A program made the position numbers and the translations under genes. Positions 13,363 through 36,294 of a stretch of 64,000 nt of DNA are shown here, in pieces. The notes under the pieces were generated by a model. It saw nothing but the letters and a program-made list of their open reading frames with translations, was not told the DNA's origin and searched no databases. The number at the start of each line of letters is the position of its first letter. The first letter of the stretch is position 1. Source of the DNA: a virus; the IMG/VR virus record IMGVR_UViG_3300032006_002011, positions 1 to 64,000 of that record; one strand, written 5' to 3'.

Positions 13363-16300
13363 TTATTGTTCAGTTGGTGTAGGACTTGGGCTTGGGGTGA
13401 GTGAAGTTTCAATTGTCCACTCGGGTGCAGTTGCCGTATAACAAGTTCCCTCGGATTCGTAATAAATTGTAGGTGTCTCTCCATCTGGATAAGTGTTAGT
13501 TGTGATTATCCTTGCCACAGTAAAATTTCCATCCTTGATAGCAATGGTTATTTCTTCGGTTGATGTTTCAGAAAACTCCTTTGGATTAAAACTTACCACC
13601 GCAGTTGGTAAACTTATGAGAATCTTAAACTCACCCATAACAATTTCCGAAGATGAATATGGTACTTCGATGTACTCATCTGTGGGTGTGCATTGTTGCA
13701 CGGGGGTCGGTGTGGGTGTTGGGGTAGGTGTAGGTGTTGGGGTAGGTGTTGGGGTCGGAGTCAACTCTACCGAGTCTTCAAACGAATATGAAAACTCAAT
13801 CTTCTCTTGTTTTTCCTCGGACAACATCGGCGAAACTATCAGGCCTGGGTCTTCTCTCACTACGGATACCACAGGGGTGTCATCTATGAACCAAAAATGA
13901 TCAGGAGACCCACTACCCGTGCGGGTTCTTACTATTGGTGAGGTGGAATTTAGATGCCCCGACAAGTTTGCGGTAGTTGAGACATCATTGACACCTCGGC
14001 CGATAATATTTCGTCTAAAATTACTTCTATGTATAGGAAACTTTTTCTTTGTAAACAGAGAACCAGGTGTTCCAATATTTACTAAATCACACAATTGAGT
14101 TGGTCGTTCAATCACATAATCAAATGGAATAGTTTTTGATACCTGACGTGTCCATGATTTAAGTTGATTACCGTCAGCACTGATTCCGTCACCTATTCCA
14201 TATTCAAACTCATCAACATGAACTGATGTGTGTATTTTCTCCGCAACATAATCTTCACGACATCTTGGTGTAATAACAATCTTAACATCCAAGGTAACGT
14301 CAGAAATCAAACCAGTATAATTAGGTATATTCAATTTGCTTGATATAACCAAAGGAGTTTGTTTAATTATTTGCTCGGAAGTGACCACTGCACTTCCACT
14401 CTCCTCAACTCCGAAAAATTCAGCAGACCAATTAATAAGAGAATTTCCATCATAACTAAAACTAACTTTAGTATTTTCTCTAGTATCCTTGGTGAATATC
14501 TCCGGTTCGTGGGTAACATCAATAGGCAAAGTTATTTTATATAAATTGCTCTGTTGTGATGATATTGGGGTGATGGAAAACTTCACGGATGAATCTAACT
14601 GAGATGAAATCTTTTCACTGGAAAGTGTATCGAGTTTAGTAATCACCGGTGTTGGGTGGATATGATATGAAGTTGTATTCGTGGTGGGTGAATAATCTAC
14701 CTCATACTCAAATGTATCATAATTCATATCAGAAATTGACATATCCGAGGGATTCTTCAATTTATTAAGATTATCAAGTTCCGTTATTTGTGTCTTCTGT
14801 GGATCTTTGAACTGACCCAATAAAAGTTTATAGTTAACTACCAAAAATGATTCGGGGTCTATGTTTCTAACATCACCGAGGGCCAATTTAGGTGCAGTTA
14901 TACTTGCAAGGGTATTGGTTGGGGTGGACTTGACACTATCAAGATCATCCGTTGTTAACTTAAATTTATAAAACACACCTTGCATAAAGTCGGCCGAATT
15001 GTGGTTTGTTGGATTAACCTCCGAATCGAATCTATCTACGTTCTCAAATACTATACCCGACAGTTGTGTTTCGTATTTATCGGTGAATACCCACTTTGAC
15101 TGGAATGAGTTGGGTTTGCGATCCATACAAGCAATAATCCAATTATTTCTATTTGCAAATGTATACGCATTACCATTCGAGTCCATAGTGCCCGTTGTAG
15201 TATATATACCATTGGCATCCTCAATATCACACTCCGAAACTTCAACGGTTGTTAAATCTATCAACTTTAGCATAGCAACCGATTGCCAATTATCACGCAT
15301 TCTATATTCACCGGGGTGGGGACATAACATTGTTGCTAATTTATTTACATTTTTATCATATGCGTCCTGCGGGACTCCATTTCGTTTCTGTAAACTTGCT
15401 TCGGGAGAAGCCTCTAATGGTGGGACATCTATTGTTTTCAACGAAACATATATGTCTCGGCAACTTGTCACTCCCTCGTTTTTCAATTCCGCAACACCTA
15501 TATCATACGATGGGTTGTTTGGATCAGAGCTGCTCGTTGATGAAATATAAAGTGGATCAGTGTCTGATTTTCTTTGTATTATATACTTTGTAGGATCATC
15601 TCTTTTTATAAATAGTTTGTCCCCCGGTGATGTTCCTGTGTTAGTTTCCTCACGACTCTCGGTGTATACTCCATTAAATGTCGCAGACGCACCTGTCCCA
15701 CAGGAAACTTCGATTGCAAGTTCACCACCAATTCCATATAAATATGGTTTATCTACACCCAAATTAAGTAAGTCACACCTAGCAATATTTGAATTTTTTT
15801 CAATATTATTTTCAACTAAACTCGGAGATGCATATGGATATGCTTTCAAATCACGACAATCTACATCACCAACGGCCTCTTTCTTTACATGACCCCAATT
15901 TATGTATAAATCTTCCGATATCTCATCGGTGGTAGACAATGGAACTTTATTCGTAACAGGAATCCTTGGATTAAACGGGATGGGGGCAGACGGTGTACGT
16001 CTTGTATAAAATACATTGGAGCTTCCCGTGGGGAATATTTCAGATTGTTTCTCTCTATAAGTGCAGTCGGGAGTTATAGTTACCTCCGTGGTGGATTTAA
16101 TATATCCCAATTTAGTTGCAAGTGTCTCAGTTTCTTGAAACGACATATCCCGATAATATTCAGAGTAGTTTGGTTTTGAAACATGACTAATAATCCACCT
16201 ATCAGGAGTATTCATTTTAGTAGATTTTTTCAAACGAATTTCATACTCCTCGGAGGTAGATCTAAAAATCACATCATCTTCCGTATCGGTTAAACTTATA

Positions 16301-19300
16301 TTAACCCGTGTATATATTCCGCGTGGAATTTTTTCATTCTTGGCCGTGTTGGAATAATACATACTTCGGGTAGGATCAACTTCAACCGAAACCGTATTAT
16401 AATCATCAGGTATCCAATTAAGTATAACTTCCGCACCACCACCCTCTCTTCTATAATTGCCAGGAATTGGAAGGGTTGGAGTCTTCCTCTTCGCCACAAT
16501 ACACCACGCAAGCTTTTCTATTGAAGCTGCTAAGTTATCTGATTCAAATCTCGCAAAGTGATGTGGGTTGGGTATCAATCTAAAAGAATTTCCCACCACA
16601 GGGCCACTTGACGCAGAAAGCATATCAAGTCTTTCTGGGCTGGATGTTATTGTATCTCTAAAATAACTTGCCGAGGACTGATAACTCAGTTTGTTCTTTT
16701 GTTCAAGGGATGGAATATATGCGTATCCCGTTTGTGGGGCATACCCAAGGCCATCCGAAGTTTGCTGGAATGTCTTGCCACCCAGTTTTATATACAAATC
16801 GGTTTCATCATGTGTAGAGAACTTATTATCTTCATTAATCCTACAACTGAATTCACGTGCTAAATTAATAACCCACTTTGTTGGCATATGAGTATTAAAA
16901 TACTTTGTCAGATTCAATTGCTGATATGTAGTTTTCATGGAATTTCGTATCTCTGTTGCGAGTGGAACACACTCCACAAGAACCCAAGTATACACATCCT
17001 CGTTCCAATACAAATACCACCCACGGCCGTTTGTATATGATGGATTTTCCCCGGAAACCCCATTTACTTTTCTATATAACCCGTTTGCAGATAGGGCGAC
17101 ATTCTTGAAACCAAAAAGTTTCACCGCAGACGGATCTCTGAATATGTACACCAATCCATTTCCGTCTGTGTCCAACCCAAGTGCTTCGGCTGACAACAAA
17201 TTAACATATCCCTCTTCATCATTGTTGAGTAAATCTACAACCGGAGTATCGGTATTAAGTTCATTTCTATGATAACCGACATCACCACCATATAAAGTGT
17301 TAAACTCTGGGTGAGTTGCGTCTTCCTTTCCATAAATCCACATTATATCGTGCCGAACTGGACTTTCATGCGGAATATACAATTTTTGTTCATCGGTAAA
17401 ATTAATAGAATAGTTATTGCTATGGAGGAGTATCCACCTGTGATTTATATCACTCCAAAAAATGTAGTTAACCTTTCGACCTATAAATCCCTTTGGCAGA
17501 AGGTGGGCATCTCCACTAATATCTCCTATTACATTCTGGCGGTAGTTGCCATCTATGTCACGATCATTTCTATATAAAGATTTTCCATTATATGTTCCGA
17601 TCTCCAAATAAGATCCATTCAACATATCCATCTGACCCTCAAACTCAGTTATATCAATTGAATTAAATTTAGTTAATTCATAGACACAAAAATAATTCCC
17701 CAGGGTATCTGATTGGTTATAAGTTACATCTTTATCGAACGGCAAAATTTCCAATTCATATTTGTATGAGGGGTTTTCAATCTTTATATCAATTGGTATG
17801 TGTAAGTTGTTCTTTGTATATACAATTTTATCCGCAGTTCCACCGTCAAAGCCAACATCTTGAGTGACTATACTGGAATCATATGCCAATCTATGTTCTG
17901 CAAATACACTCGACAACTCAACCGTGCCACCCGGTCTTAATAACCCATAACCCAACCGAGGTGTTGCAGACCACTCCACAATTTCATCCGAAAGTGACAC
18001 CTTATCCAAACCTTGCTTGTCCACAGAATGTTTGACTCTGTGAATGTGGTCTTCACTGCGTCCAGACACCTTCTTTGTTGTGACGGTTTCCTCCAAATAC
18101 CCCACCAACCATATATTTTGAACTACATGTTTTTTGTGCGGCGATGATCCCAGTGAGGGGGATTTAATGTGAAAGAAACACACCTTGGAAATATCATGGT
18201 TTTCCAACTCCGTTATATTATAGGTGTTATATATGTAATTTCTATCAGAAAGTTCGGTATCTACTGAGGCTATAGTTTGAGTTAAAACAGAATTTATTCG
18301 GGCGTCCCAGTTTTCGGGATCATTTGACCTCTGTTGTTCCGCCCTAGCAACAAAATCTCTATTCTCAATATACTCATTACCCGAGGTAAAATTTTGATGA
18401 GAATAGTCATATTCATATATGTACCCAGAAACACAATTCGACCCAGAAGATACTATACTTACGTCTGGATTAGTTGAATCCGTGGAATCTATGGAAAACT
18501 CAACATTAAGTGGTCGGTCAACCGCCTGTAATCCTGTTTTCATTTTAATTCTATAATATTTTGTGTGTTCGGGATCAAGTTCCGTGTGAGCAAGTACCTT
18601 AATATCACGGAGGGTAGTTCCTCGTAAATTGGCCGTTAATTCCACCGAGTAATCTAACAGGGTAGGAAATGAGAACGTATCTGTAGTTCTGTGGTTAACT
18701 GCTAGAGAATAACTACCCGAAATCCGTTGGTCTCCACCGTGCCTAAACTCCAATTTGTTTTGTACATCATAGTGTACATATGGAGAATCCACTTCACCAT
18801 ATCTAATAGTAGTGTTTTCGTAGGTTTTAAAAGTTGATGTAACTGGTACTAAATTAACCGAGTCAAACTCCTTAGTTATATAGTTTGTTTTAATTTGAAC
18901 AGTCTCATCAAGATTTGTTGTTATACTACCCGATTCTTTATTTACTATATCATTTATGCTATATATCGTAGCACCCACATCGTCCGTTGGAAGCGTCCAC
19001 GGATTATCACAATCATAGTAATTCGCAGAATTTACTGTTCCCGTTACTCTAAAGTCTCCTCCACCTTGACCGAGTGTTCCTCTCAATAACTTCCCACTGA
19101 ACTTACCGTCCATGAAAATAGTTTTACTCACACCATCTTTTTCAAAGTGATAATTAGTAACCTCATAATATCCGGTTTTGGGTTGCCAAACATCCTCATT
19201 ATTTATACGAGTCAGCACCTTATATTTGCCCGAAAAATTACCATATAATTCACAACTCAAATTACCGACAACACGACCACGATCATCCGGCACATTGTTA

Positions 19301-22300
19301 GTGTTGATAGACAAAATTCTATCATTCATAACAGATGCAGACGGTAACAGACCAGAATCCACCTGAGTAATAGAATTGTTATCGTAATATGCAGTATTAT
19401 CTTTCTTGTTTCCAACAAACCGGCATGGCCATGTATACACCATGTTCTCACACGAATCACCCGTATCAAATACCCACAACAACCCCTCCTTGGGGATTAA
19501 TAACCCACCTTCTTCACTTATGCTTGCTGGGTTCTCATTTACCAACACCCACCTTTCTCTAGACCTACTCCAAAATATAAACCATGTTTTTGAGTTATTT
19601 GAAAACGACAACTTACCATTAATAAGAATACCCGACCTATATACACCATTTGCTTTCGCGAACTCACCCACATATGTGCCATCACCATTAACCAACCCAT
19701 CTATTTTAATTATTACATCCGTGAGGCGATCATAGTCTACATCACTGCTCATATCATACTTGATAGGAAGTCTTATTTGATACGACCTTGGCAATGACTC
19801 CACTTTGTACATAGTTGAACCAATTGTATGGACTCCATATATGGACGAAACACCGTACATATCTTGGTCAAGGGCATTGCTAACATAATTCCCTGTATAA
19901 TTAAAATTAAATGTCCTGTTATGATCTGGTTCATTTGCACTATCTGCTCTTTTATATCCTGCGTTTGAAGAAAGCAATACCACCGAAGTATCCTTTGACG
20001 TACCTCCGGGTGTTCTGGGATTTGCGAAAGATGCTATACTGGTAGTGGTATCGTGACATGACAATTTTATGTTATGTAATCTAGTTATCTTTCTCTCATT
20101 TGTCGCCTTTTCAGTAATAGAGTTCAGTCCCAACGGGTTGTTTATATTTTCCAACGATTCACTTGAAATTTTATTAAACTCAGAACGAACTGAAGATACC
20201 AACTTGGCACTTCTGAATTTATTTCTTTCAAGTATGCTCGGTTCAACCAATAAACCCGATATCAAACGGGTTCTGGCGGGAGTTAACTTTTCGATATTTT
20301 CAAACAACGAAGCATCGACATATGCCTTCATAATGTTCAAGTACATAGACCAGTCTATCTGACCGAATCCCTCTTTATAAAACACCCTCTTAAATTGATT
20401 ATATCGTTCATACTCACTTTCATATAAATCCGATGGATCACCTATGTAGTCACCCAATTCAAAATTACCAAAGAATCTTAATATCTCTGTGTTAATCAAA
20501 TCCGTTGGACTGAAAAACACTCCAAGAGTGTTGGTATCGACCGCCAACCTGTCACCCGACTTCTCCGTTGCTCTAGAATAAGGACTTAGTGTTCCTGTTA
20601 GTTTCTGTTCCTCTATTCTGATTTTTTTATTATTAAATGCCTGAGCACCGAATAAGGGAAGTTTTGCGTATTGCCGTCTAGCACTTCCCGTGAAATCATA
20701 GGGAAATTCCCGCGAACGGAAATTCCAACACTCAATTTCTTTAGGAGCATCTTCCCTGAATGCACTATTTAAAATAACTCCATGTGGTGACTCGTCTTGA
20801 GCATGGCTTGGGTTTCCGGCAGCCGTTATATCATAAGGGTAGTCAAAGTTAGATTTAAAAATCAACGACTCATTTAGTGTAAGTGGATCGTCTATATCAT
20901 ATGACTGATTAAATAATATATGATTTTCAAATCGGTCTTCCGGAATTTCAATATTATACATTCTCAGTCGATTAAATGTTCCGCGGTATGTAGAAGAAGC
21001 ATAATTTCCAAAAAATATGTTATTGTAAGAGTTAAACTTGGTAAACGCATCAAATGTGGTAGGTATTAAACTAGAATAACTAACCACCACATCAGCATCC
21101 ACCACCTTCTTAACATACAACTTTAAATATCGTGAGAACTCGGCCGTTGACGAGGTTGATTTCACAAGCATTATGTTATAGTCTCCCGCACCCAATACAT
21201 TTACCGGTGGGTGTGATTTATCTGGACAATAATGTCTACCACTTGCTTCGGATTCGAAGTAAAATCTACCATATCCGTCTTGTTGACGTCCCGGGGAAAT
21301 CTCAACCCCAATCTCCCAATCTGACGAAGCATCCTCATCATTAAATGACTTATCAGAATTAACGAAAGAAATATCAACAGAAACTGGGTTTAGTATACAT
21401 TCGTTATCACTAATCTGACCCACCAAGGTTTCTCCCTCATATAAACCCTCGGTTGGGGTGTAATATATTTTTAACCCAGAAAGTGTTCCACTTGGTATAC
21501 CCGTGTAAGTTATGTGGCCTGCCAGCGTTCCCTCGGGTCCATATACATCAACTGGATACGGAGAGGAGGTGTCATCTTCCATACCGTATACGGGAACCTC
21601 CGTTGTTGCGGATGGTATTGACATACGACCCGACCATTGCCACGTGGAAGATGTTATACCCCCGTCTTGATCCACAATCGGGGTGGAACGAGATACTGCA
21701 TATTCTAATTGGCCGAATTCCGTAGATAAGTTGGTGGTTCTCAATGAATCATCAAATGATAGTTCAAACTCAAGTGTTCTAACCTCATACAAATCAGAAT
21801 TCCAAGGAATTGCAAGATACTGATCGTCCTCTGAAAACTCTAGTTTATAATCAAATATATCAAAACTAAAAACCGAATCGTCCGACTCACCACTCGTTGA
21901 ATATCTTACACCCCCATATTCCTTTATTTTAAAAAGGTGATCTGGGACACCGTAACACCGAAGCAAAGCAGATATAGATCTCTCAGTTCCAATAGTCTTA
22001 AGGATGTGAGGAAGGTTGTTTAATATCCTCCTCCATATTATATCACGACGTTGCTTAATAGACAATTTATCAGATGGTTGAGATGCCGAAATATCATCAC
22101 CCGAATCATCTTGGCCTGAGAATCTTATTCCGAGTGAATTCATTATAAACCATACAAGTTGATTTGGAACTCCCTTGGTTGATTTGTTTCTCGGTTTGAG
22201 AGATGCACCCATATTGGCAATGTAAGTATAAATCAAATCAAAGTGATTTCCGACCAAATTTAGAAAATCAACAAAATCTTCATTAGAATCATCACGAACC

Positions 22301-24528
22301 AAAAACTCTGGTATGTTATTTCCCAGTGCATCATCATTAACTTTATCATATTTATCTGCCTCGTTTGCCCTCTCCAAGTACCAATAATACCCCGCATCAG
22401 ACTTAAAGTCATTTAAATCTTGTGGAATATAACGAGGTGAACGGGATTTGTTATCACCCACACCAACACAATCATACGAAACACTAAATAATGTAGACTC
22501 ATCAAACCCCGAGTTATTAAGTGTGGTCACAACCGAAGAACCCTCGGTACGAGAAATCTCATGTGGTGTCAAATTATCAATTAACACCGAGTCACTAGTT
22601 CTGGACGAACCATAAGCAATCCAGTTTCCAGTTTTAAGGGGACCGGTGTCTGACAAAACCCACCCCAATTCATTACCATCCCAAAACAAGGACCAGTCCC
22701 CTGCTTGGTGTGTATAGATAGGTCGTTCATTAAAGCGACCATCTTCATAATACACACCTTCGTACAAGACCGACTGAAATTTGCTTGTGGATGATGTGGT
22801 GATTACTAAATCGTTCGTGCGGGGCCATGCATCATCACTATTAGTGTAAAACAAAAACCGTTCATATTCAGTAAACGCAGAAATCAACTCATTTGCTTCA
22901 TCGTTTATCTTAACTATATCCATTTCATTTAAAATGGAAACCGAGTCAATTGCAGTGGCCTCTGCTATTGTTCCTAGTAACGAACGGGTTTTTAGAGCAT
23001 AAATCTCATTCTCCGCGTCAGTTCTCTTTCTATACAACTTAGATAACTGAGTTAGTTTAAACACGAAGGCATCTAATTTTTTGCGGGCAGACGAAAACCT
23101 TACAAAATTAGAAAAATCAGAATAATCTATTGACAGCTCGGTGCCCGATGTAATCTTGTTGAAATAATTTGAAATACCCGAGGAAATTTCATTACCCAAT
23201 TCCAATTCATCACTTGTATATTTCTTCGTACCTGCTCCCGAAGTCAGTAATGATACTCTGTCGGGGCCTCTAAGTTTATATGTCGTTGACTTTACTTCTT
23301 CCGTTACTATTACAGTTTGAACGACATCATCTGAACTTGATATATTTGATATGTAAAATCCATCACCCACACCAATTTCGTGTGGAAGTGGTTCTGGTAA
23401 TTTTAATATAGTTGGTTGGTGCTTTACATCATCGTCTACATTCTGAGTCGATGGTGTGTGTTTTAATATTGGATAATTCTCCCCGTTGGTAAAATTCATT
23501 ACATTGGAAAAGTAATTATCAAATCTATTTGCATATAATTCCGTCAAAAAATCCAGATCAAATAAACATATAAATGCAGATTTATAGAAATCTCTCTCAA
23601 CTGAATTGGTCTTAAGTATTCCGAGTTTGGTATGTTTTGAAATTATATACTCAACGCATTTCAAATATTCATCATAAAAATCGGACGATGCAAACGAAGA
23701 ACCATATTTAGATGTAATTGTATTTTCATATAAATCGGCCAACTTAGAATATTGAGTTAAAATATCCTTAATAAGTTTGTTATGGTGATTTGGTTTTATT
23801 GAACTTGGATCAACCCCTAGCAACGTGACCAACGTAGTTTCCAAACTTTTTTCATAGTTGGTGATGGATGATTTTAATTTATCAGAAAACCCCAAACCGG
23901 TATCATCTAACATATAAGAAGTATCAGACCTAAGAAACTTCTTTGTGTCGTGGTATATATGTGCAACCAAAATTCTCTTGTTCAAAAAATTATCATAATC
24001 AAAATTCAACGATGCGTCTTGTGCTCTAATTGAATTTTTCAAACACTCGGGTATAATCTTGATTTCTGTCCGAGAGGGAGAAATTTCAGAAATTACAAGC
24101 TTACTATCCGAGTCGTGCGAACCAACTATATCACTCTTGAACGAAATGCCAACACGATAAATTCCGGACGCCAGGCCGATCTCCTTTAGTTCGGTGACAG
24201 GTGATAGTATAATATTGCCATTTGCTGACGGATATATAGAGTCAAGAACTCTTATGCTCGCGGTGGTTGTCTCCCCATCATAGTTTGTGAACCGCAATTG
24301 CTTTGTTGTATAATTTTCTGCTCCCGCAACTACACCCCACCCTAGCATATTCTCACCGGTAGAATCATACGCACTAAACTCTACTACATCCTTATGAGAA
24401 CTACCAAAGTCAACCCCAACTGGTATTTTTTCAAACGCAAGATCTAGTGTCCCTGGTTCAACATAATACCCACGGGAAAAATCTAAGGTTTGTGTGGATT
24501 CATCAACATATTTCAAATATTGTGGCAT
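13363..24528 (-). CDS. Giant baseplate-wedge-like virion protein (3721 aa) with repeated modules and a Thr-Pro linker
   Basis: IPEFL...FVDFLNLVGNHFD and LPHILKTIGTERSISALLRCYGVP resemble wedge/tail-protein-I motifs; lies in the baseplate cluster. Confidence 0.65.
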   Translation of the reverse strand: MPQYLKYVDESTQTLDFSRGYYVEPGTLDLAFEKIPVGVDFGSSHKDVVEFSAYDSTGENMLGWGVVAGAENYTTKQLRFTNYDGETTTASIRVLDSIYPSANGNIILSPVTELKEIGLASGIYRVGISFKSDIVGSHDSDSKLVISEISPSRTEIKIIPECLKNSIRAQDASLNFDYDNFLNKRILVAHIYHDTKKFLRSDTSYMLDDTGLGFSDKLKSSITNYEKSLETTLVTLLGVDPSSIKPNHHNKLIKDILTQYSKLADLYENTITSKYGSSFASSDFYDEYLKCVEYIISKHTKLGILKTNSVERDFYKSAFICLFDLDFLTELYANRFDNYFSNVMNFTNGENYPILKHTPSTQNVDDDVKHQPTILKLPEPLPHEIGVGDGFYISNISSSDDVVQTVIVTEEVKSTTYKLRGPDRVSLLTSGAGTKKYTSDELELGNEISSGISNYFNKITSGTELSIDYSDFSNFVRFSSARKKLDAFVFKLTQLSKLYRKRTDAENEIYALKTRSLLGTIAEATAIDSVSILNEMDIVKINDEANELISAFTEYERFLFYTNSDDAWPRTNDLVITTSSTSKFQSVLYEGVYYEDGRFNERPIYTHQAGDWSLFWDGNELGWVLSDTGPLKTGNWIAYGSSRTSDSVLIDNLTPHEISRTEGSSVVTTLNNSGFDESTLFSVSYDCVGVGDNKSRSPRYIPQDLNDFKSDAGYYWYLERANEADKYDKVNDDALGNNIPEFLVRDDSNEDFVDFLNLVGNHFDLIYTYIANMGASLKPRNKSTKGVPNQLVWFIMNSLGIRFSGQDDSGDDISASQPSDKLSIKQRRDIIWRRILNNLPHILKTIGTERSISALLRCYGVPDHLFKIKEYGGVRYSTSGESDDSVFSFDIFDYKLEFSEDDQYLAIPWNSDLYEVRTLEFELSFDDSLRTTNLSTEFGQLEYAVSRSTPIVDQDGGITSSTWQWSGRMSIPSATTEVPVYGMEDDTSSPYPVDVYGPEGTLAGHITYTGIPSGTLSGLKIYYTPTEGLYEGETLVGQISDNECILNPVSVDISFVNSDKSFNDEDASSDWEIGVEISPGRQQDGYGRFYFESEASGRHYCPDKSHPPVNVLGAGDYNIMLVKSTSSTAEFSRYLKLYVKKVVDADVVVSYSSLIPTTFDAFTKFNSYNNIFFGNYASSTYRGTFNRLRMYNIEIPEDRFENHILFNQSYDIDDPLTLNESLIFKSNFDYPYDITAAGNPSHAQDESPHGVILNSAFREDAPKEIECWNFRSREFPYDFTGSARRQYAKLPLFGAQAFNNKKIRIEEQKLTGTLSPYSRATEKSGDRLAVDTNTLGVFFSPTDLINTEILRFFGNFELGDYIGDPSDLYESEYERYNQFKRVFYKEGFGQIDWSMYLNIMKAYVDASLFENIEKLTPARTRLISGLLVEPSILERNKFRSAKLVSSVRSEFNKISSESLENINNPLGLNSITEKATNERKITRLHNIKLSCHDTTTSIASFANPRTPGGTSKDTSVVLLSSNAGYKRADSANEPDHNRTFNFNYTGNYVSNALDQDMYGVSSIYGVHTIGSTMYKVESLPRSYQIRLPIKYDMSSDVDYDRLTDVIIKIDGLVNGDGTYVGEFAKANGVYRSGILINGKLSFSNNSKTWFIFWSRSRERWVLVNENPASISEEGGLLIPKEGLLWVFDTGDSCENMVYTWPCRFVGNKKDNTAYYDNNSITQVDSGLLPSASVMNDRILSINTNNVPDDRGRVVGNLSCELYGNFSGKYKVLTRINNEDVWQPKTGYYEVTNYHFEKDGVSKTIFMDGKFSGKLLRGTLGQGGGDFRVTGTVNSANYYDCDNPWTLPTDDVGATIYSINDIVNKESGSITTNLDETVQIKTNYITKEFDSVNLVPVTSTFKTYENTTIRYGEVDSPYVHYDVQNKLEFRHGGDQRISGSYSLAVNHRTTDTFSFPTLLDYSVELTANLRGTTLRDIKVLAHTELDPEHTKYYRIKMKTGLQAVDRPLNVEFSIDSTDSTNPDVSIVSSGSNCVSGYIYEYDYSHQNFTSGNEYIENRDFVARAEQQRSNDPENWDARINSVLTQTIASVDTELSDRNYIYNTYNITELENHDISKVCFFHIKSPSLGSSPHKKHVVQNIWLVGYLEETVTTKKVSGRSEDHIHRVKHSVDKQGLDKVSLSDEIVEWSATPRLGYGLLRPGGTVELSSVFAEHRLAYDSSIVTQDVGFDGGTADKIVYTKNNLHIPIDIKIENPSYKYELEILPFDKDVTYNQSDTLGNYFCVYELTKFNSIDITEFEGQMDMLNGSYLEIGTYNGKSLYRNDRDIDGNYRQNVIGDISGDAHLLPKGFIGRKVNYIFWSDINHRWILLHSNNYSINFTDEQKLYIPHESPVRHDIMWIYGKEDATHPEFNTLYGGDVGYHRNELNTDTPVVDLLNNDEEGYVNLLSAEALGLDTDGNGLVYIFRDPSAVKLFGFKNVALSANGLYRKVNGVSGENPSYTNGRGWYLYWNEDVYTWVLVECVPLATEIRNSMKTTYQQLNLTKYFNTHMPTKWVINLAREFSCRINEDNKFSTHDETDLYIKLGGKTFQQTSDGLGYAPQTGYAYIPSLEQKNKLSYQSSASYFRDTITSSPERLDMLSASSGPVVGNSFRLIPNPHHFARFESDNLAASIEKLAWCIVAKRKTPTLPIPGNYRREGGGAEVILNWIPDDYNTVSVEVDPTRSMYYSNTAKNEKIPRGIYTRVNISLTDTEDDVIFRSTSEEYEIRLKKSTKMNTPDRWIISHVSKPNYSEYYRDMSFQETETLATKLGYIKSTTEVTITPDCTYREKQSEIFPTGSSNVFYTRRTPSAPIPFNPRIPVTNKVPLSTTDEISEDLYINWGHVKKEAVGDVDCRDLKAYPYASPSLVENNIEKNSNIARCDLLNLGVDKPYLYGIGGELAIEVSCGTGASATFNGVYTESREETNTGTSPGDKLFIKRDDPTKYIIQRKSDTDPLYISSTSSSDPNNPSYDIGVAELKNEGVTSCRDIYVSLKTIDVPPLEASPEASLQKRNGVPQDAYDKNVNKLATMLCPHPGEYRMRDNWQSVAMLKLIDLTTVEVSECDIEDANGIYTTTGTMDSNGNAYTFANRNNWIIACMDRKPNSFQSKWVFTDKYETQLSGIVFENVDRFDSEVNPTNHNSADFMQGVFYKFKLTTDDLDSVKSTPTNTLASITAPKLALGDVRNIDPESFLVVNYKLLLGQFKDPQKTQITELDNLNKLKNPSDMSISDMNYDTFEYEVDYSPTTNTTSYHIHPTPVITKLDTLSSEKISSQLDSSVKFSITPISSQQSNLYKITLPIDVTHEPEIFTKDTRENTKVSFSYDGNSLINWSAEFFGVEESGSAVVTSEQIIKQTPLVISSKLNIPNYTGLISDVTLDVKIVITPRCREDYVAEKIHTSVHVDEFEYGIGDGISADGNQLKSWTRQVSKTIPFDYVIERPTQLCDLVNIGTPGSLFTKKKFPIHRSNFRRNIIGRGVNDVSTTANLSGHLNSTSPIVRTRTGSGSPDHFWFIDDTPVVSVVREDPGLIVSPMLSEEKQEKIEFSYSFEDSVELTPTPTPTPTPTPTPTPTPTPVQQCTPTDEYIEVPYSSSEIVMGEFKILISLPTAVVSFNPKEFSETSTEEITIAIKDGNFTVARIITTNTYPDGETPTIYYESEGTCYTATAPEWTIETSLTPSPSPTPTEQ
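13702..13761 (-). repeat. (Thr-Pro)10 coding repeat
   Basis: Degenerate 6-bp repeat encoding TPTPTP near the C-terminus of the 3721-aa protein. Confidence 0.9.
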
Positions 24529-33015: not shown

Positions 33016-33882
33016 TCAGTCTAAATCTATCCTACCTTGGTCAATATATTTCCTATGCAAAGCAAATTGTGTTTCCTTCATCTTATTAACGACCTTGGTT
33101 ATATTTTGAGTTTTGCAATCAGTCATTTCACGTATATACAAATACAATGCCTTTTTATTGAAATTTTCAATTGAATCGCAGTTTCTGAATATCTCCACTA
33201 CGGCAGCTGCGATTCTTAATTCTTGTGGTTTCTTAAAAAACTTTTCGAGGTTTTCGTCCCAGTACCCTATCATCAGTTTTATAAATTCACTTAACTCTTT
33301 CTTTTTAATTTCCGACTTTGGACTTACAGTTAATTCTTTTTGTTCATATACAATTTCGTCATCGTCCACACTTGTATGTCGTTTAAACTTCTTATAGTTT
33401 CCGTTATTATATAAAATTAAAAAGTTTTTTGCTATAATACTAAAATACGAAAAGGCCTTTCCGTTTTCTTGTTTATATTTGTGAATATTACTTACCAAAT
33501 TACTAACAGTTTCCCGCTGAACATCTTCATGACTACATTGAAAATAAGAAAACTTAAAAGTATTTAGTATGTTCTCTGCAAGTTTGTCGAACGGATAACT
33601 TATTGACTCGTTATATATTTTATTTCGTTTTATAGTACACTCTGTCGAGTTATACAACACAATTGCATCTTCGGTTTCTTGAGTAAAATATAACTTTTTC
33701 TTTGTCTTGGAACGCCTGCGCCTTCTTTTTTTAGGGGCTGGTTGTTTATCTACCTCGACCTTAACATTAGAAACTTTCTTCTTAGTAGTTGCCTTCTTCT
33801 TGGAAGCTGCTTTAGTAGTTGCAGCCTTCTTAGAAGTTGCTTTAGTAGTTGCCTTCTTCTTGGCAGTTGCCTTTGCTTTCAT
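33016..33882 (-). CDS. Phage sigma-like transcription factor (gp55-like) with a Lys/Ala-rich N-terminal tail
   Basis: KLAENIL...EDVQRE...IHKYKQENGKAFSYFSIIAKN resembles sigma region 2; N-terminal KKATTKA repeats. Confidence 0.6.
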   Translation of the reverse strand: MKAKATAKKKATTKATSKKAATTKAASKKKATTKKKVSNVKVEVDKQPAPKKRRRRRSKTKKKLYFTQETEDAIVLYNSTECTIKRNKIYNESISYPFDKLAENILNTFKFSYFQCSHEDVQRETVSNLVSNIHKYKQENGKAFSYFSIIAKNFLILYNNGNYKKFKRHTSVDDDEIVYEQKELTVSPKSEIKKKELSEFIKLMIGYWDENLEKFFKKPQELRIAAAVVEIFRNCDSIENFNKKALYLYIREMTDCKTQNITKVVNKMKETQFALHRKYIDQGRIDLD

Positions 33883-34154
33883 ATTTCGTCCTCATTAATT
33901 TTACTATCTAAATCCAGTATTATATCTCGTATACCAGAATATACCACACCCACCTCATCATCACTCTCAAATAACTCCTTTGAGTCAATGTCCTTAATAT
34001 CATTACTCAGTTTAGTTACCGAGTCTCTGGTTTCCAGTATCCACTGCTCATATACACCATTTTTAATATATAAATTTCTTATAATATATATTAATAGAGG
34101 TATAATAATTACCCAAGAAACTGCCAACGCAATTATATAATACGTTTCATACAT
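33879..34154 (-). CDS. Small membrane protein
   Basis: N-terminal TM YYIIALAVSWVIIIPLLIYII; ATGA overlap with the sigma-like gene. Confidence 0.7.
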   Translation of the reverse strand: MYETYYIIALAVSWVIIIPLLIYIIRNLYIKNGVYEQWILETRDSVTKLSNDIKDIDSKELFESDDEVGVVYSGIRDIILDLDSKINEDEI

Positions 34155-34198
34155 AGGCACTGTATATTATATATATATTTATTTGTCAACAAAATAAA

Positions 34199-35077
34199 TC
34201 ATTTGTTATCTTTTTGTGAATCGTCTTTTTTGTCCGATTCTTTTTCTGTGGGCATATTACCAAGTGTACTTCCTGGTATATATTCCCTATCTCTTTTGTA
34301 TCGTTTTCTTATAATATATTCTTCATATGCTTTCATTGAAGTTTCTTTCCAAGGCACATAATATGGACCTTTATTAAATCCTGCTGGGTCTAATTTATTC
34401 ACCTTAACAAACTCTTCCCACTCATCTTCATTATCATACATAGGAGTTGACATAACATTATCATCTTCTTGTTTTTTTGGAGTCGGGGTCGGGGTCGGGG
34501 TTGGAGTCGGAGTCGGGGTTGGTGTTGGAGTCGGGGTCGGGGTTGGTGTTGGAGTCGGGGTTGGTGTCGGGGTTGGAGTCGGGGTTGGTGTTGGTGTTGG
34601 AGTCGGGGTTGGTGTTGGAGTCGGGGTTGGTGTCGGAGTCGGGGTTGGTGTCGGGGTTGGAGTTGAAAATTCCTCACACGCATCTGGTAATAACAATGTA
34701 TCGTCTGTCCATTCTGTATCTTGATATGGAAACTCAACATCTTCGGCCATTCCCACTAGTTGCCACGGATGGGCATCTTCTCTGCTATGGTCCGTCTTGT
34801 GCCACCCCATTGCCCAAAAGTTGTCAATTGATGTCCAGAAAATCCATCGTTCGTTTTCCATGCCGATATACTCATCGGAGCAGCTGCCTTCACATCGTTT
34901 TACCCACGCAGGTTTTCCCTGCCACAACTCGGAATCAAGGTGATATTCCCCACTATATGCAAACGAGTCTTCGGTTTTTGAAACACATATAACAGAAGAT
35001 GGTTGTGGAGTTGGGGTGGGTGTAAAGTCACTCTCCTCTTGATACCTATCAGCAAAGGGAAGATTGTCTATCCAATT
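34199..35077 (-). CDS. Start-less -1-frame extension of the upstream membrane protein (aromatic module plus (TP)31 linker)
   Basis: The frame of the 242-aa track ORF stays open 50 codons upstream (NWIDNLPFADRYQEESDFTPTPTPQPSS...) to the A10 run, with no ATG/GTG/TTG in that stretch. Confidence 0.65.
   Translation of the reverse strand, partial: NWIDNLPFADRYQEESDFTPTPTPQPSSVICVSKTEDSFAYSGEYHLDSELWQGKPAWVKRCEGSCSDEYIGMENERWIFWTSIDNFWAMGWHKTDHSREDAHPWQLVGMAEDVEFPYQDTEWTDDTLLLPDACEEFSTPTPTPTPTPTPTPTPTPTPTPTPTPTPTPTPTPTPTPTPTPTPTPTPTPTPTPTPTPTPTPKKQEDDNVMSTPMYDNEDEWEEFVKVNKLDPAGFNKGPYYVPWKETSMKAYEEYIIRKRYKRDREYIPGSTLGNMPTEKESDKKDDSQKDNK
34478..34663 (-). repeat. (Thr-Pro)31 coding repeat
   Basis: 186 nt of ACN-CCR dicodons. 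Confidence 0.95.
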
Positions 35078-36168
35078 TTTTTTTTCGGGGTGTCTAATTC
35101 ATCGTCACGGGTTAACTTTCCACCCGATATAATGTTGTATGCAAGAACAAGTGCAACCGCAAGTGGATCAAACACGATAACAATTACAATGATAAACCAC
35201 TTAACAACTTGGTCGATTGGAGTATTAAACGAATCAGCAATGAACTGAAAACTTCCTATGTCCGTATTTCTAATAGAGTCCTTTTCCTCAAGAATGCGTT
35301 GCTCGTTTTTTCTTAACTTCTCATAGTTTGCTTCAATTGCGGGTGTGTTATCTATCTTATTAGACTCATCTCGTAAACTATTTACCTTTCCCGTGAAGAT
35401 CCCGTATTCTCTTTCAATTTCCGCGTCAATTGCGTTGATTTGTTCATTGTATAGGGCAACCGCGGATGTTTCTTCATCATCAATTTTTTTCATAGACTCT
35501 GCAATGGATGCCCGTTCTGGTGCCTGAGCCTTTGCAAGTTCTTCAAGTTTCTTCTTCTTATTGGAGAACAAACCACCACTTGATGCTTCTAACTCACTTC
35601 TTGCCTTGTCAAGTATTGCAAGTCTATCCAATAGTTGTTGCCTTCGTGATTGACGGGTTTCGGAATCAGACTTGTGTCTATCTGACAGAGATGCTTGTCT
35701 TGCTCGTCTATCCTCAACAAAGTCATCATAAATTTTTTGGAATCCAGCAATGGTTTCCGTTGATTTGTTGTCAACTGTGTCCGATGATTGCTTGAGTGAT
35801 TCCATCTCACCTTTAATATGTTCGTTCTCTGCTTGTATTTGGACGATGTTATTGTTGTGCATTTCAACCTTTGCACGTGTATCGTCATACGCATCACTTA
35901 AAAATCCATAAATACCAAGTGACGTTATCCCCACTAGGGTTATCACCGCAGTAGTTGAATATATTTTCAACATACGTGGAACTCGGTCCCAATATCGATA
36001 TAGAAACGAAGTCATTACCAATTTTCCTGCTTCAAGGACACCTGCCATTATCATAGCGGCGATGGATGCTCCTGCAAATAATAAACTTATTCCCCAAACT
36101 GAAAAGAAGGCTGCCGTTCCCGCCACCGCAAGTGCCAAAAGGCCGACTATTGCCGTAAACATCTTCAT
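35068..36168 (-). CDS. Membrane protein: 3 N-terminal TMs, long coiled coil, C-terminal TM
   Basis: Hydrophobic segments, LEAGKLV...LYRYW, GIYGFLS, FIIVIVIVFDPLAVALVLA; SD GGGAGG. Confidence 0.85.
   Translation of the reverse strand: MKMFTAIVGLLALAVAGTAAFFSVWGISLLFAGASIAAMIMAGVLEAGKLVMTSFLYRYWDRVPRMLKIYSTTAVITLVGITSLGIYGFLSDAYDDTRAKVEMHNNNIVQIQAENEHIKGEMESLKQSSDTVDNKSTETIAGFQKIYDDFVEDRRARQASLSDRHKSDSETRQSRRQQLLDRLAILDKARSELEASSGGLFSNKKKKLEELAKAQAPERASIAESMKKIDDEETSAVALYNEQINAIDAEIEREYGIFTGKVNSLRDESNKIDNTPAIEANYEKLRKNEQRILEEKDSIRNTDIGSFQFIADSFNTPIDQVVKWFIIVIVIVFDPLAVALVLAYNIISGGKLTRDDELDTPKKKIG
35076..35085 (-). other. A10 slippery site (candidate -1 ribosomal frameshift or transcriptional slippage)
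   Basis: CCG AAA AAA AAA ATT GGA TAG in frame 0; AAT TGG ATA GAC... open in the -1 frame. Confidence 0.6.
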
Positions 36169-36235
36169 AATAATATATATCCTCCCATTAGTTTATTTAA
36201 TCCGTATCATCCTCATATAAATATAATATAATTAT

Positions 36236-36267
36236 AAAAAAACGGAGGTTTTTTTAAAACCCCCGTT
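36236..36267 (-). terminator. Rho-independent terminator after hsp20
   Basis: AACGGGGGTTTT-AAA-AAAACCTCCGTT stem followed by a T run. Confidence 0.75.
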
Positions 36268-36294
36268 CAAAACGAATTGTTTTAAGTTGTTATG

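What the first reader, a model, noticed from the sequence alone, without database searches (positions are those of the whole stretch)
34199..36168. A10 slippery site joins a membrane coiled-coil protein to a start-less ORF with a (Thr-Pro)31 stalk
Seen: the 366-aa membrane protein ends CCG AAA AAA AAA ATT GGA TAG. The -1 frame is closed by a TGA a few codons before the run, then stays open 292 codons. Its first 50 codons have no ATG/GTG/TTG yet look coding (FTPTPTPQP, and the start of the aromatic module YSGEYHLDSELWQGKPAW). An imperfect hairpin (TCTTCCCTT...AAGAGGAGA) starts 12 nt downstream. Established: long A runs support RNA polymerase slippage and A_AAA_AAN heptamers support -1 frameshifting. 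Inference: two products of 366 and about 656 aa, at a locus other than the classic tail-chaperone frameshift.
Basis: partly seen in the sequence, partly recalled or inferred. Interest (0 to 1): 0.7.

Follow-up and report, generated by a model that had tools for sequence, protein, structure and literature searches.

The report
Conserved A10 frame-switch in phage membrane gene
A run of ten A's at the end of a membrane-protein gene of an uncultured marine T4-like phage is a strictly conserved slip site that most likely lets one gene make a 366-residue protein and a 656-residue form with a long Thr-Pro stalk; the trick is known, its use in this gene family is not described.

Summary
ORF-A (35068-36168, minus strand, 366 aa) ends CCG-A10-TTGGATAG. 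The -1 frame is closed by TGA just upstream, then runs 292 codons with no ATG/GTG/TTG in the first 50.

It is not an assembly error. All 38 related IMG/VR contigs found (34 datasets, ORF-A 65-89% identical) carry exactly A10 and an open -1 frame. An independent run also holds A10.

The -1 frame is translated from the run onward:
- Codon periodicity shifts by -1 at the run.
- pN/pS is 0.08-0.36 in the first 18 codons.
- The peptide NWIDNLPFA..Q..GDF follows the run in every contig.
- In most relatives the first start codon lies more than 120 codons downstream.

No single-ORF fused form exists in two large protein libraries.

The mechanism is inferred: RNA polymerase slippage on the run (about 60%), ribosomal -1 shifting or sliding otherwise. 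A weak upstream stem is inconclusive. Function is unknown. ORF-A models as four membrane helices plus a long helical hairpin.

The closest analogue is Citrobacter tssM1. Earlier notes of this scan report the same site on other DNA. Four literature searches found no description.

The parts
35068..36168 (-). ORF-A. A 366-aa membrane protein: three N-terminal membrane helices, a long helical hairpin, a fourth membrane helix and a short tail ending PKKKIG, then TAG.
   Evidence: hydropathy; AlphaFold2 on 50 sequences, mean pLDDT 78.7: helices 2-24, 26-58, 65-195, 204-300, 318-348. The family has 2028 proteins at E<1e-5.
35076..35085 (-). The A10 run (T10 on the template strand). This is the slip site.
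   Evidence: Exactly A10 in 38 of 38 related contigs. A10 also in an independent run's contig.
35068..35070 (-). The 0-frame stop TAG, two codons after the run. It overlaps the -1 frame codons ATA GAY.
   Evidence: TAG in all contigs. Its G is the first base of the conserved Asp codon of the -1 frame.
35099..35101 (-). TGA that closes the -1 frame upstream of the run. It confines the shift to a window of about 30 nt.
   Evidence: In relatives the upstream -1 stop lies 25-175 nt before the ORF-A stop.
34199..35077 (-). The -1 frame extension: 292 codons from AAT, plus the stop TGA at 34199-34201.
   Evidence: 25 distinct complete versions among 36 complete copies. 24 of the 25 keep the C-terminal module.
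35024..35077 (-). Junction peptide NWIDNLPFADRYQEESDF. It has no start codon and is the most conserved part of the extension.
   Evidence: Variable columns by codon position are 8, 5 and 16 of 18. pN/pS is 0.08-0.36 in 9 pairs.
34664..34999 (-). Aromatic and Cys-containing module (YSGEY..CEGSCSDEY..RWIFWTS..). It is an insertion found only in part of the clade.
   Evidence: Present in the window, L018 and P0001-P0004 only. Window against L018: pN/pS 0.29 for codons 1-50 and 0.13 for codons 51-138.
34925..34927 (-). The first canonical start codon (TTG) in the -1 frame, at codon 51.
   Evidence: No Shine-Dalgarno-like motif at the usual distance (read).
34478..34663 (-). (Thr-Pro)31 stalk.
   Evidence: Mixed codons (CCA 16, CCG 15, ACC 13, ACT 10, ACA 8). 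A TP/SP/EP-rich linker is present in all relatives.
34202..34477 (-). C-terminal module (DDNV.STPMYD .. GPYYVPWK.TSM .. YIPGSTLGN .. K/D/E-rich end).
   Evidence: phmmer against 1.84 billion representatives gave 12 hits, all ORFs of 37-190 aa.
35088..35125 (-). A weak predicted stem whose 3' arm ends 2 nt before the run. It is a possible slippage stimulator but is unproven.
   Evidence: -7.5 kcal/mol, z = -0.47; 84.3% of cells paired against 81.3% in shuffles, with one compensatory pair.
36231..36268 (-). Terminator-like hairpin after hsp20, overlapping a promoter-like TTTAAA-16-TATAAT. This is the probable 5' boundary of the ORF-A transcription unit.
   Evidence: consensus matches only.
36180..36186 (-). 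GGGAGGA Shine-Dalgarno-like motif, 11 nt before the ORF-A ATG.
   Evidence: Read.

Best explanation
The A10 run is a selected recoding site. One gene gives two membrane proteins with the same first 364 residues. The short form is 366 aa and ends KKKIG. The long form is 656 aa; after KKK it continues in the -1 frame with NWIDNLPFADR.., an aromatic module, a (Thr-Pro)31 stalk and a small C-terminal module.

Most likely mechanism: the host RNA polymerase slips on the ten rA:dT pairs that fill its 9-10 bp hybrid. This yields a mixed mRNA population. Transcripts with one extra A (or two fewer) are read by ordinary translation into the long form. A10 transcripts give the short form. A9 transcripts stop within a few codons and also give a short form. 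Ribosomal -1 shifting or sliding on A_AAA_AAA may add to this.

The positive-inside rule and the model place the helical hairpin outside the cytoplasm and the tail inside it. The long form would then hang a flexible stalk with a binding module on the cytoplasmic face.

Shown here: the site, its conservation, and coding selection on the -1 frame. Inferred: the slippage mechanism, the ratio of products, the topology and the function.
For: 1. Exactly A10 in 38 of 38 related contigs from 34 datasets, with ORF-A 65-89% identical.
2. A10 in an independent run: X3, a 591-nt contig with 0 differences and 0 gaps. X7, a relative with 18 differences, also shows 0 gaps.
3. The three Lys codons are AAA in every contig, even where the gene prefers AAG (L018 AAA 5 / AAG 19; L019 6/18).
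4. Codon periodicity shifts by -1 at the run. Upstream, variable columns are 13, 6 and 28 of 28 in frame 0. Downstream they are 8, 5 and 16 of 18 in frame -1.
5. pN/pS is 0.08-0.36 for the first 18 codons of the -1 frame in 9 pairs. It is 0.29 for the window's start-less 50 codons against L018.
6. Among 18 sequences, 14 had their first start in the -1 frame at codon 46-233, 10 of them beyond codon 120; one had GTG at codon 22 and three had no start.
7. The 0-frame change ATT to ACT is synonymous in the -1 frame (AAT to AAC). TAG is invariant because its G begins the conserved Asp codon.
8. No fused single ORF was found.
9. A/T runs of 8 or more are depleted elsewhere in the record: 3 seen against 17.6 expected.
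10. Published precedent. The tssM1 A11 run gives about 20% frameshift, and RNA with 10-15 A's was measured (PMC4256274, sections 7-8). [quoted passage not shown]
11. No conserved downstream structure or Shine-Dalgarno-like stimulator of the kind usual for ribosomal -1 shifting.
Against: No RNA or protein data exist. No RNA run was listed, so neither product nor any A11 transcript has been seen.

All ten A's can also be explained by a ribosomal A_AAA_AAA heptamer plus Lys and Asn coding. Conservation therefore does not separate polymerase from ribosome.

The host and its RNA polymerase are unknown.

The upstream stem that could aid slippage is statistically weak.

Topology rests on the positive-inside rule, a model and sub-threshold Tetraspanin hits. 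Thr-Pro linkers are more typical of exported proteins.

The model of the extension failed (pLDDT 41). No function can be read from it.
Confidence: 0.8

Rival explanations
1. Purely ribosomal recoding. Transcripts are uniform A10, and a fraction of ribosomes shift -1, or slide, on A_AAA_AAA with tRNA-Lys in the P and A sites.
For: The heptamer is in the right phase. A few tailed-phage shifts work without stimulators (PMC5009743 passage). Sliding on A runs is reported (PMC5009743 passage). In the 364-aa subclade a GGAG lies 12 nt before the run.
Against: No conserved downstream structure. The GGAG is absent from the window, L017, L018, L028 and L030. A run of 9 or more A's is itself prone to polymerase slippage. 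Uniform transcripts would therefore be unexpected if the host enzyme behaves like those studied.
Confidence: 0.25
2. Assembly or sequencing error. The true run is A11 and the gene is one 656-aa ORF.
For: Homopolymers are error-prone, and the fused frame is fully coding.
Against: 38 of 38 contigs from 34 datasets have A10, and none has A11. An independent contig agrees. About 5.8 billion and 1.84 billion predicted proteins hold no fused form. The 0-frame stop and the upstream -1 stop are kept in every contig.
Confidence: 0.02
3. The downstream ORF is a separate gene, started at TTG 34927 or at a non-canonical codon such as the ATA overlapping the TAG.
For: Gene callers predict stand-alone ORFs of 185-281 aa (P0001-P0006, P0010). 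Some start near the window's TTG.
Against: Those calls simply begin at the first available ATG. Among 18 sequences, 14 had their first start at codon 46-233, one at codon 22, and three had none. The best-conserved peptide lies before any start and is under purifying selection. The Asn and Trp codons before the ATA are conserved in the -1 frame, and ATA is GTA in L021 and L022. No Shine-Dalgarno motif stands before the TTG.
Confidence: 0.03
4. DNA-level phase variation. Replication slippage switches the phage population between A10 (short form) and A11 (long form).
For: Homopolymer tracts act as contingency loci in bacteria and some phages (general knowledge).
Against: The consensus is A10 in all 38 contigs. 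No insertion or deletion was listed in four runs (table 4). Contigs hide rare variants, however.
Confidence: 0.03

Closest known systems
Citrobacter rodentium tssM1 and Yersinia pseudotuberculosis tssM (transcriptional frameshifting; PMC4256274, abstract and sections 7-8 read)
   Same: A poly-A run (A11) lies shortly before a premature stop in the gene of an inner-membrane protein. The C-terminal domain lies in another frame. Both a short and a full-length variant are made. No Shine-Dalgarno motif or RNA structure stands nearby.
   Different: That is a bacterial secretion gene and unrelated in sequence. The shift there is +1, with the run 28 nt before the stop. RNA heterogeneity (10-15 A's) and about 20% efficiency were measured there; nothing is measured here. 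Here the site is fixed across a deep phage clade rather than in one or two species.
Thermus thermophilus dnaX, and Shigella spa13, mxiE, spa33 and mxiA slippage sites (PMC5009743, passages read)
   Same: Runs of about 9 A or T are used productively to give two products from one gene through mixed transcripts.
   Different: In dnaX, slippage shortens the product. Those are cellular genes. None encodes a stalked membrane protein.
Phage tail assembly chaperone G/GT -1 frameshift (lambda and many tailed phages; PMC5009743 passage)
   Same: A phage gene in which a minority product carries a C-terminal extension from the -1 frame, conserved by position across phages.
   Different: It is ribosomal, usually on G_GGA_AAG-type heptamers. 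The gene lies between the tail tube and tape measure genes. The protein is soluble. Here the gene is a 4-helix membrane protein next to hsp20, and the signal is a 10-nt homopolymer.
Roseiflexus IS630 stem-loop-dependent slippage (PMC5009743 passage)
   Same: A nascent-RNA hairpin abutting the hybrid is proposed to promote realignment. A weak stem ending 1-2 nt before the run can be drawn here.
   Different: That motif (T5C5) needs the hairpin. A10 should slip without one. The stem here has only one compensatory pair.
Overlapped two-component spanin genes (Rz/Rz1 type; recalled, plus a weak PHROG hit)
   Same: A membrane-anchored coiled-coil protein gene with a Pro-rich ORF overlapping its 3' end in another frame.
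   Different: The second ORF here has no start codon, no signal peptide and no lipobox. ORF-A has four membrane helices, not one. The PHROG match has E = 0.0078 only.

Membership tests
Programmed transcriptional slippage sites of bacteria | Homopolymeric A or T run long enough to fill the RNA:DNA hybrid (9 or more) inside a coding region | tested here: met
   A10 at 35076-35085. The threshold is taken from PMC5009743.
Programmed transcriptional slippage sites of bacteria | Run length conserved among diverged relatives, including at synonymous positions | tested here: met
   38 of 38 contigs have A10. AAA is kept where AAG is the preferred Lys codon.
Programmed transcriptional slippage sites of bacteria | Alternative frame after the run is coding and has no initiation of its own | tested here: met
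Programmed transcriptional slippage sites of bacteria | Transcripts with non-templated extra or missing A's, absent from the DNA | not testable with these tools
   No RNA run listed. Only DNA contigs were laid.
Programmed transcriptional slippage sites of bacteria | Two protein products sharing the N-terminus | not testable with these tools
   No proteomic data.
-1 programmed ribosomal frameshift cassette (dnaX / IS3 type) | X_XXY_YYZ heptamer in the 0 frame | tested here: met
   A_AAA_AAA within CCG AAA AAA AAA ATT.
-1 programmed ribosomal frameshift cassette (dnaX / IS3 type) | Stimulatory hairpin or pseudoknot 5-9 nt downstream | tested here: not met
   Consensus fold of 12 sequences is -1 kcal/mol. 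Window z = +1.05. 2 of 8 loci reach z of -2.9 or lower, but with different folds.
-1 programmed ribosomal frameshift cassette (dnaX / IS3 type) | Shine-Dalgarno-like element about 10-14 nt upstream | tested here: not met
   GGAG is present only in the 364-aa subclade. It is absent in the window and in 4 other distinct sequences.
Phase-variable contingency locus | Tract length polymorphic at DNA level among strains | tested here: not met
   A10 in all 38 contigs. No indel was listed in 4 runs. Rare variants cannot be seen in contigs.
Tail assembly chaperone G/GT | Small soluble chaperone gene upstream of the tape measure gene | tested here: not met
   ORF-A is a membrane protein with four helices. 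It lies between hsp20 and small ORFs.
Two-component spanin (Rz/Rz1) | Second ORF with its own start, signal peptide and lipobox Cys | tested here: not met
   No start for 50 codons in the window and more than 120 in most relatives. No hydrophobic leader.
Tetraspanin (PF00335) | Pfam gathering score reached | tested here: not met
   The window protein has no hit. 11 of 50 family members hit weakly (best E = 2e-4, below the cut-off). Only the arrangement of four helices and a large loop is alike.

The most novel reading that the evidence does not exclude
The site is a terminator-like slippage cassette: a GG..CC-clamped stem abutting a run the length of the hybrid. It fixes the ratio of two isoforms of a tetraspanin-like envelope protein found widely in large marine and freshwater phages. 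The long isoform uses its Thr-Pro stalk to hold a lineage-specific binding module at a set distance from the membrane. Because the template strand carries ten T's and the same phage record encodes a candidate thymidine-hypermodification pathway (earlier notes, not tested here), the slip rate, and so the isoform ratio, could be tuned by the phage's own DNA modification.
Probability: 0.12. Interest if true: 0.8.

Novelty: new member of a known kind. Interest (0 to 1): 0.6.

Why it matters
Recoding in tailed phages is known mainly from tail chaperones and a few capsid genes. This is a deeply conserved site in a membrane protein of uncultured marine T4-like phages.

- It hides about 290 codons from gene callers. 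Public libraries hold only truncated ORFs of 37-281 aa for the extension.
- It gives a clean natural test case for polymerase against ribosome slippage on a homopolymer, with 38 natural variants of the context.
- It shows that the hypervariable C-terminal tail of a very large, unannotated phage membrane-protein family (2028 proteins at E<1e-5) can be made optional.

For annotation pipelines, the rule 'A10 plus a start-less conserved frame' would recover the long isoform.

Tried and rejected
1. Rosetta-stone idea. I asked whether the C-terminal module (GPYYVPWK..) is homologous to the in-frame tails of distant relatives (PYYL/M..W and PFPQYMTK types). hhalign gave probability below 1% and E of 0.17-0.24. 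Rejected.

2. Recoding in other branches of the family. 70 loci were examined (L102, L112, L113 and L125 were left out as cut or partial). 67 distant ones (29-48% identity) have ordinary in-frame tails and no long alternative frame. The other 3 (L057-L059) are A10-clade contigs already counted (the output was cut in the middle). The query P0191, which ends QKKKK, returned only A10-clade contigs. The P0191 branch itself therefore remains unexamined.

3. Structure of the extension. AlphaFold2 on 8 sequences gave pLDDT 41, which is unusable. The Atlas gave no usable hit for the C-terminal module.

4. Function of ORF-A.
   - Pfam and PHROGs gave only sub-threshold coiled-coil hits.
   - The PDB sequence search gave nothing below E = 0.1.
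   - Foldseek against the PDB gave no match at E of 0.001 or less, only generic antiparallel coiled coils.
   - BFVD gave uncharacterised phage proteins.
   - The Atlas gave viral hypothetical clusters.

5. Lysis context. The distant homologue lies next to a putative glucosaminidase in Pelagibacter phage Mosig. It lies 2 kb after a chitinase and holin in Flavobacterium phage immuto. There is no such context in Mel-JY01 or XacN1. That is 2 of 4, a hint only.

6. BLASTP best E values were 0.069 and 0.17. Not established.

7. No RNA holder was listed, so expression could not be examined. X1 and X2 did not cover the junction in the contigs shown.

8. blastn against the phage collection found nothing.

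9. The first two lines (window against L018) came from a bad pairwise alignment. They are replaced.

10. Literature. Four full-text searches found no description of this site or family. Supplementary tables of the frameshift surveys (PMC4066793, PMC3711429) were not opened and might list phage clusters.
Full report
**What is in the window**

All features lie on the minus strand. ORF-A (35068-36168, 366 aa) has a GGGAGGA motif 11 nt before its ATG. It follows a terminator-like hairpin and a promoter-like site behind the hsp20 gene.

ORF-A ends CCG AAA AAA AAA ATT GGA TAG. The ten A's are 35076-35085. The -1 frame is closed by TGA at 35099-35101. It is then open for 299 codons stop to stop, or 292 from the AAT that straddles the end of the run. 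Its first ATG/GTG/TTG is TTG at codon 51. It holds a (Thr-Pro)31 tract at 34478-34663. A shift at the run would give 364 + 292 = 656 aa.

The exception is the downstream hairpin, which is no better than chance: z = +1.05, and 176 of 200 shuffles fold at least as well.

**It is not an error**

Two scans of IMG/VR gave loci related to ORF-A.
- From, 17 of 19 loci include the 3' end; L033 and L035 are cut. All 17 have exactly A10, then (T/C)TGG(A/G)TAG, and a -1 frame open for 102-365 codons.
- From, 20 of 21 showed the same directly.
- The 21st, L054, has a break early in the gene, but its junction also holds A10.

This makes 38 distinct contigs from 34 metagenome datasets, at 65-89% ORF-A identity. 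A pattern search over all loci held found no copy with A7-9 or A11-14 before the same motif.

In public runs, a 591-nt contig of run X3 (another study than the probable source) spans 34891-35481 with 0 differences and 0 gaps. A diverged contig of X7 (18 differences) spans the run without a gap.

Of the 36 closest protein clusters (P0121-P0156, 59% identity or more), 33 end PKKK(I/T)G. The other three are cut short (P0140, P0147) or are an internal fragment (P0155).

No predicted protein longer than 190 aa carries the C-terminal module among 1.84 billion representatives (12 hits, all 37-190 aa). None of 512-2000 aa does so in the 5.8-billion library. No assembly therefore holds a single fused ORF.

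**The -1 frame is translated from the run onward**

- *Codon periodicity.* In 12 distinct junction sequences, variable columns upstream of the run follow frame 0: 13, 6 and 28 of 28 at codon positions 1, 2 and 3. In the 18 codons after the run they follow frame -1: 8, 5 and 16 of 18.
- *Selection.* For these 18 codons, pN/pS against nine relatives is 0.08-0.36. For the window's whole start-less stretch (codons 1-50) against L018 it is 0.29. For codons 51-138 it is 0.13.
- *Conserved peptide.* NW(I/V)D(N/D/K)LPF(A/T/E)..Q..(G)(D/E)F follows the run in every contig.
- *Small details that agree.* ATT to ACT changes Ile to Thr in frame 0 but is silent in frame -1. The stop is always TAG because its G begins the conserved Asp codon of frame -1.
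- *No independent start.* Among the 18 sequences, the first start codon in the -1 frame lies at codon 46-233 in 14, beyond codon 120 in 10 of those. One has a GTG at codon 22. Three have none; two of these run off their contig.
- *What follows.* The stand-alone 'homologues' of 185-281 aa found are gene calls that begin at the first internal ATG. After the junction peptide come a Thr/Pro/Ser/Glu-rich linker and a C-terminal module. The module is kept in 24 of 25 distinct complete versions. The exception, L028, loses frame inside the repeat, while L029 with an identical ORF-A does not.
- *The insertion.* The aromatic, Cys-containing module is specific to the window, L018 and P0001-P0004.

**The run itself is under selection at the nucleotide level**

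The three Lys codons are AAA in all contigs. L018 and L019 otherwise use AAG for 19 of 24 and 18 of 24 Lys codons of the gene.

The 77.6-kb record has only three A/T runs of 8 or more, against 17.6 expected from a first-order model. The A10 is its longest homopolymer.

The shift can only occur between the upstream -1 stop and the 0-frame stop. That window is as short as 25 nt in L041 and consists mostly of the run.

**Mechanism (inferred)**

The A11 run of Citrobacter tssM1 gives RNA with 10-15 A's and about 20% full-length product. It has no Shine-Dalgarno motif or structure nearby (PMC4256274, sections 7-8).

Here a run of hybrid length is conserved. No downstream structure is shared (consensus -1 kcal/mol). 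Eight loci gave z from +1.05 to -3.19 with different folds. An upstream GGAG is present only in one subclade.

I therefore put polymerase slippage at about 0.6 and ribosomal shifting or sliding on A_AAA_AAA at about 0.25-0.3. Both give the same long protein. Transcripts that lose one A end after LDR in most relatives (eight codons in the window), so they yield a short form too.

**Upstream stem**

Earlier notes of this scan described a small hairpin in front of such runs in other phages. I tested this here.

A stem of up to 7 pairs, clamped by an invariant GG..CC whose 3' arm ends one base before the run, can be drawn. 84.3% of cells are paired. Shuffles give 81.3% (49 of 500 reach the observed value), and only one pair shows compensatory change. 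None of 12 sequences folds at z of -2 or lower. The result is inconclusive.

**What the protein is**

ORF-A belongs to a very large family of phage proteins without annotation: 2028 at E<1e-5 among 8000 scored. The Atlas clusters are viral.

The model (50 sequences, pLDDT 78.7) shows:
- two membrane helices;
- a third that continues as a helix to residue 195;
- a tip with the invariant GG.FS motif followed by KKKK;
- return helices to residue 300;
- a short amphipathic helix;
- a fourth membrane helix (318-348);
- a disordered tail.

The loop between helices 2 and 3 has four positive residues to one negative. The start of the hairpin is acidic. The hairpin should therefore be periplasmic and both termini cytoplasmic. 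Weak Tetraspanin hits in 11 of 50 members fit that arrangement but are below the cut-off.

Distant relatives (29-49% identity) have in-frame tails of 2-142 aa that are unrelated to one another. The tail is thus the variable, probably partner-binding, end. Only this clade makes it optional.

The function is unknown. A link with lysis genes is seen in 2 of 4 cultured phages only.

The record is an IMG/VR fragment estimated 31% complete. Its baseplate protein is 36-41% identical to those of Microcystis phage Mel-JY01, Flavobacterium phage immuto and an uncultured 484-kb phage.

**Novelty**

The kind of event is known. Four full-text searches found no report of it in this family. Supplementary lists of frameshift surveys were not seen.

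The scan itself has met the same site before on other DNA:
- notes on four other genomes share sequence words with this stretch;
- follow-up reports describe A10 sites in the same or related membrane genes of marine and freshwater phages.

I reached the tssM comparison through my own search before reading those notes.

Noticed in passing
window 1-64000 and the rest of the record (G000, 77603 bases): A/T homopolymers are strongly depleted. Only two T8 (12370, 29927) and the T10 are 8 or longer, against 17.6 expected from a first-order model. This is consistent with selection against accidental slippage everywhere but here.
   Followed up: partly
L028 against L029 (same ORF-A sequence): L028's extension loses its frame inside the Thr-Pro repeat (135 codons, then nonsense-like PRKLQ repeats). 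L029 is intact. This is probably a repeat assembly error, or a real indel variant in the stalk.
   Followed up: no
L054, about 279-425: This relative has a frame break in the N-terminal membrane region of ORF-A, yet keeps A10 and the extension. It is either an assembly error or a decaying copy.
   Followed up: no
window 35560-35590 (ORF-A residues 196-207): The tip of the predicted helical hairpin carries family-wide invariant residues (G198, G199, F201, S202) followed by KKKK. It is a candidate contact site of the hairpin with wall or outer membrane.
   Followed up: no
L065-L126 (distant family members): The C-terminal tails fall into recurrent but mutually unrelated types (DPFPQYMTKAETEEVLEKWWAKRNG; LPYYLQPDFDWNN..LW; WWEIYKDK). 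The gene is often followed at once by a TTGACA..TATATT promoter-like site.
   Followed up: partly
L132 (Pelagibacter phage Mosig) and L133 (Flavobacterium phage immuto): The distant ORF-A homologue lies directly after a putative glucosaminidase (Mosig). In immuto it lies 2 kb after a chitinase and holin. This is a possible link of the family with cell-envelope or lysis functions.
   Followed up: partly
window 33879-34160 (minus strand): A small ORF directly after the extension encodes one N-terminal membrane helix and an acidic C-terminal part. It has no family match and may belong with ORF-A functionally.
   Followed up: no
window 34664-34999 against 13363-24528: The Trp-rich motif of the extension (ERWIFWTSIDNFW) weakly resembles repeats in the 3721-aa protein (E = 0.069 and 0.17). 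This is not significant on its own.
   Followed up: partly
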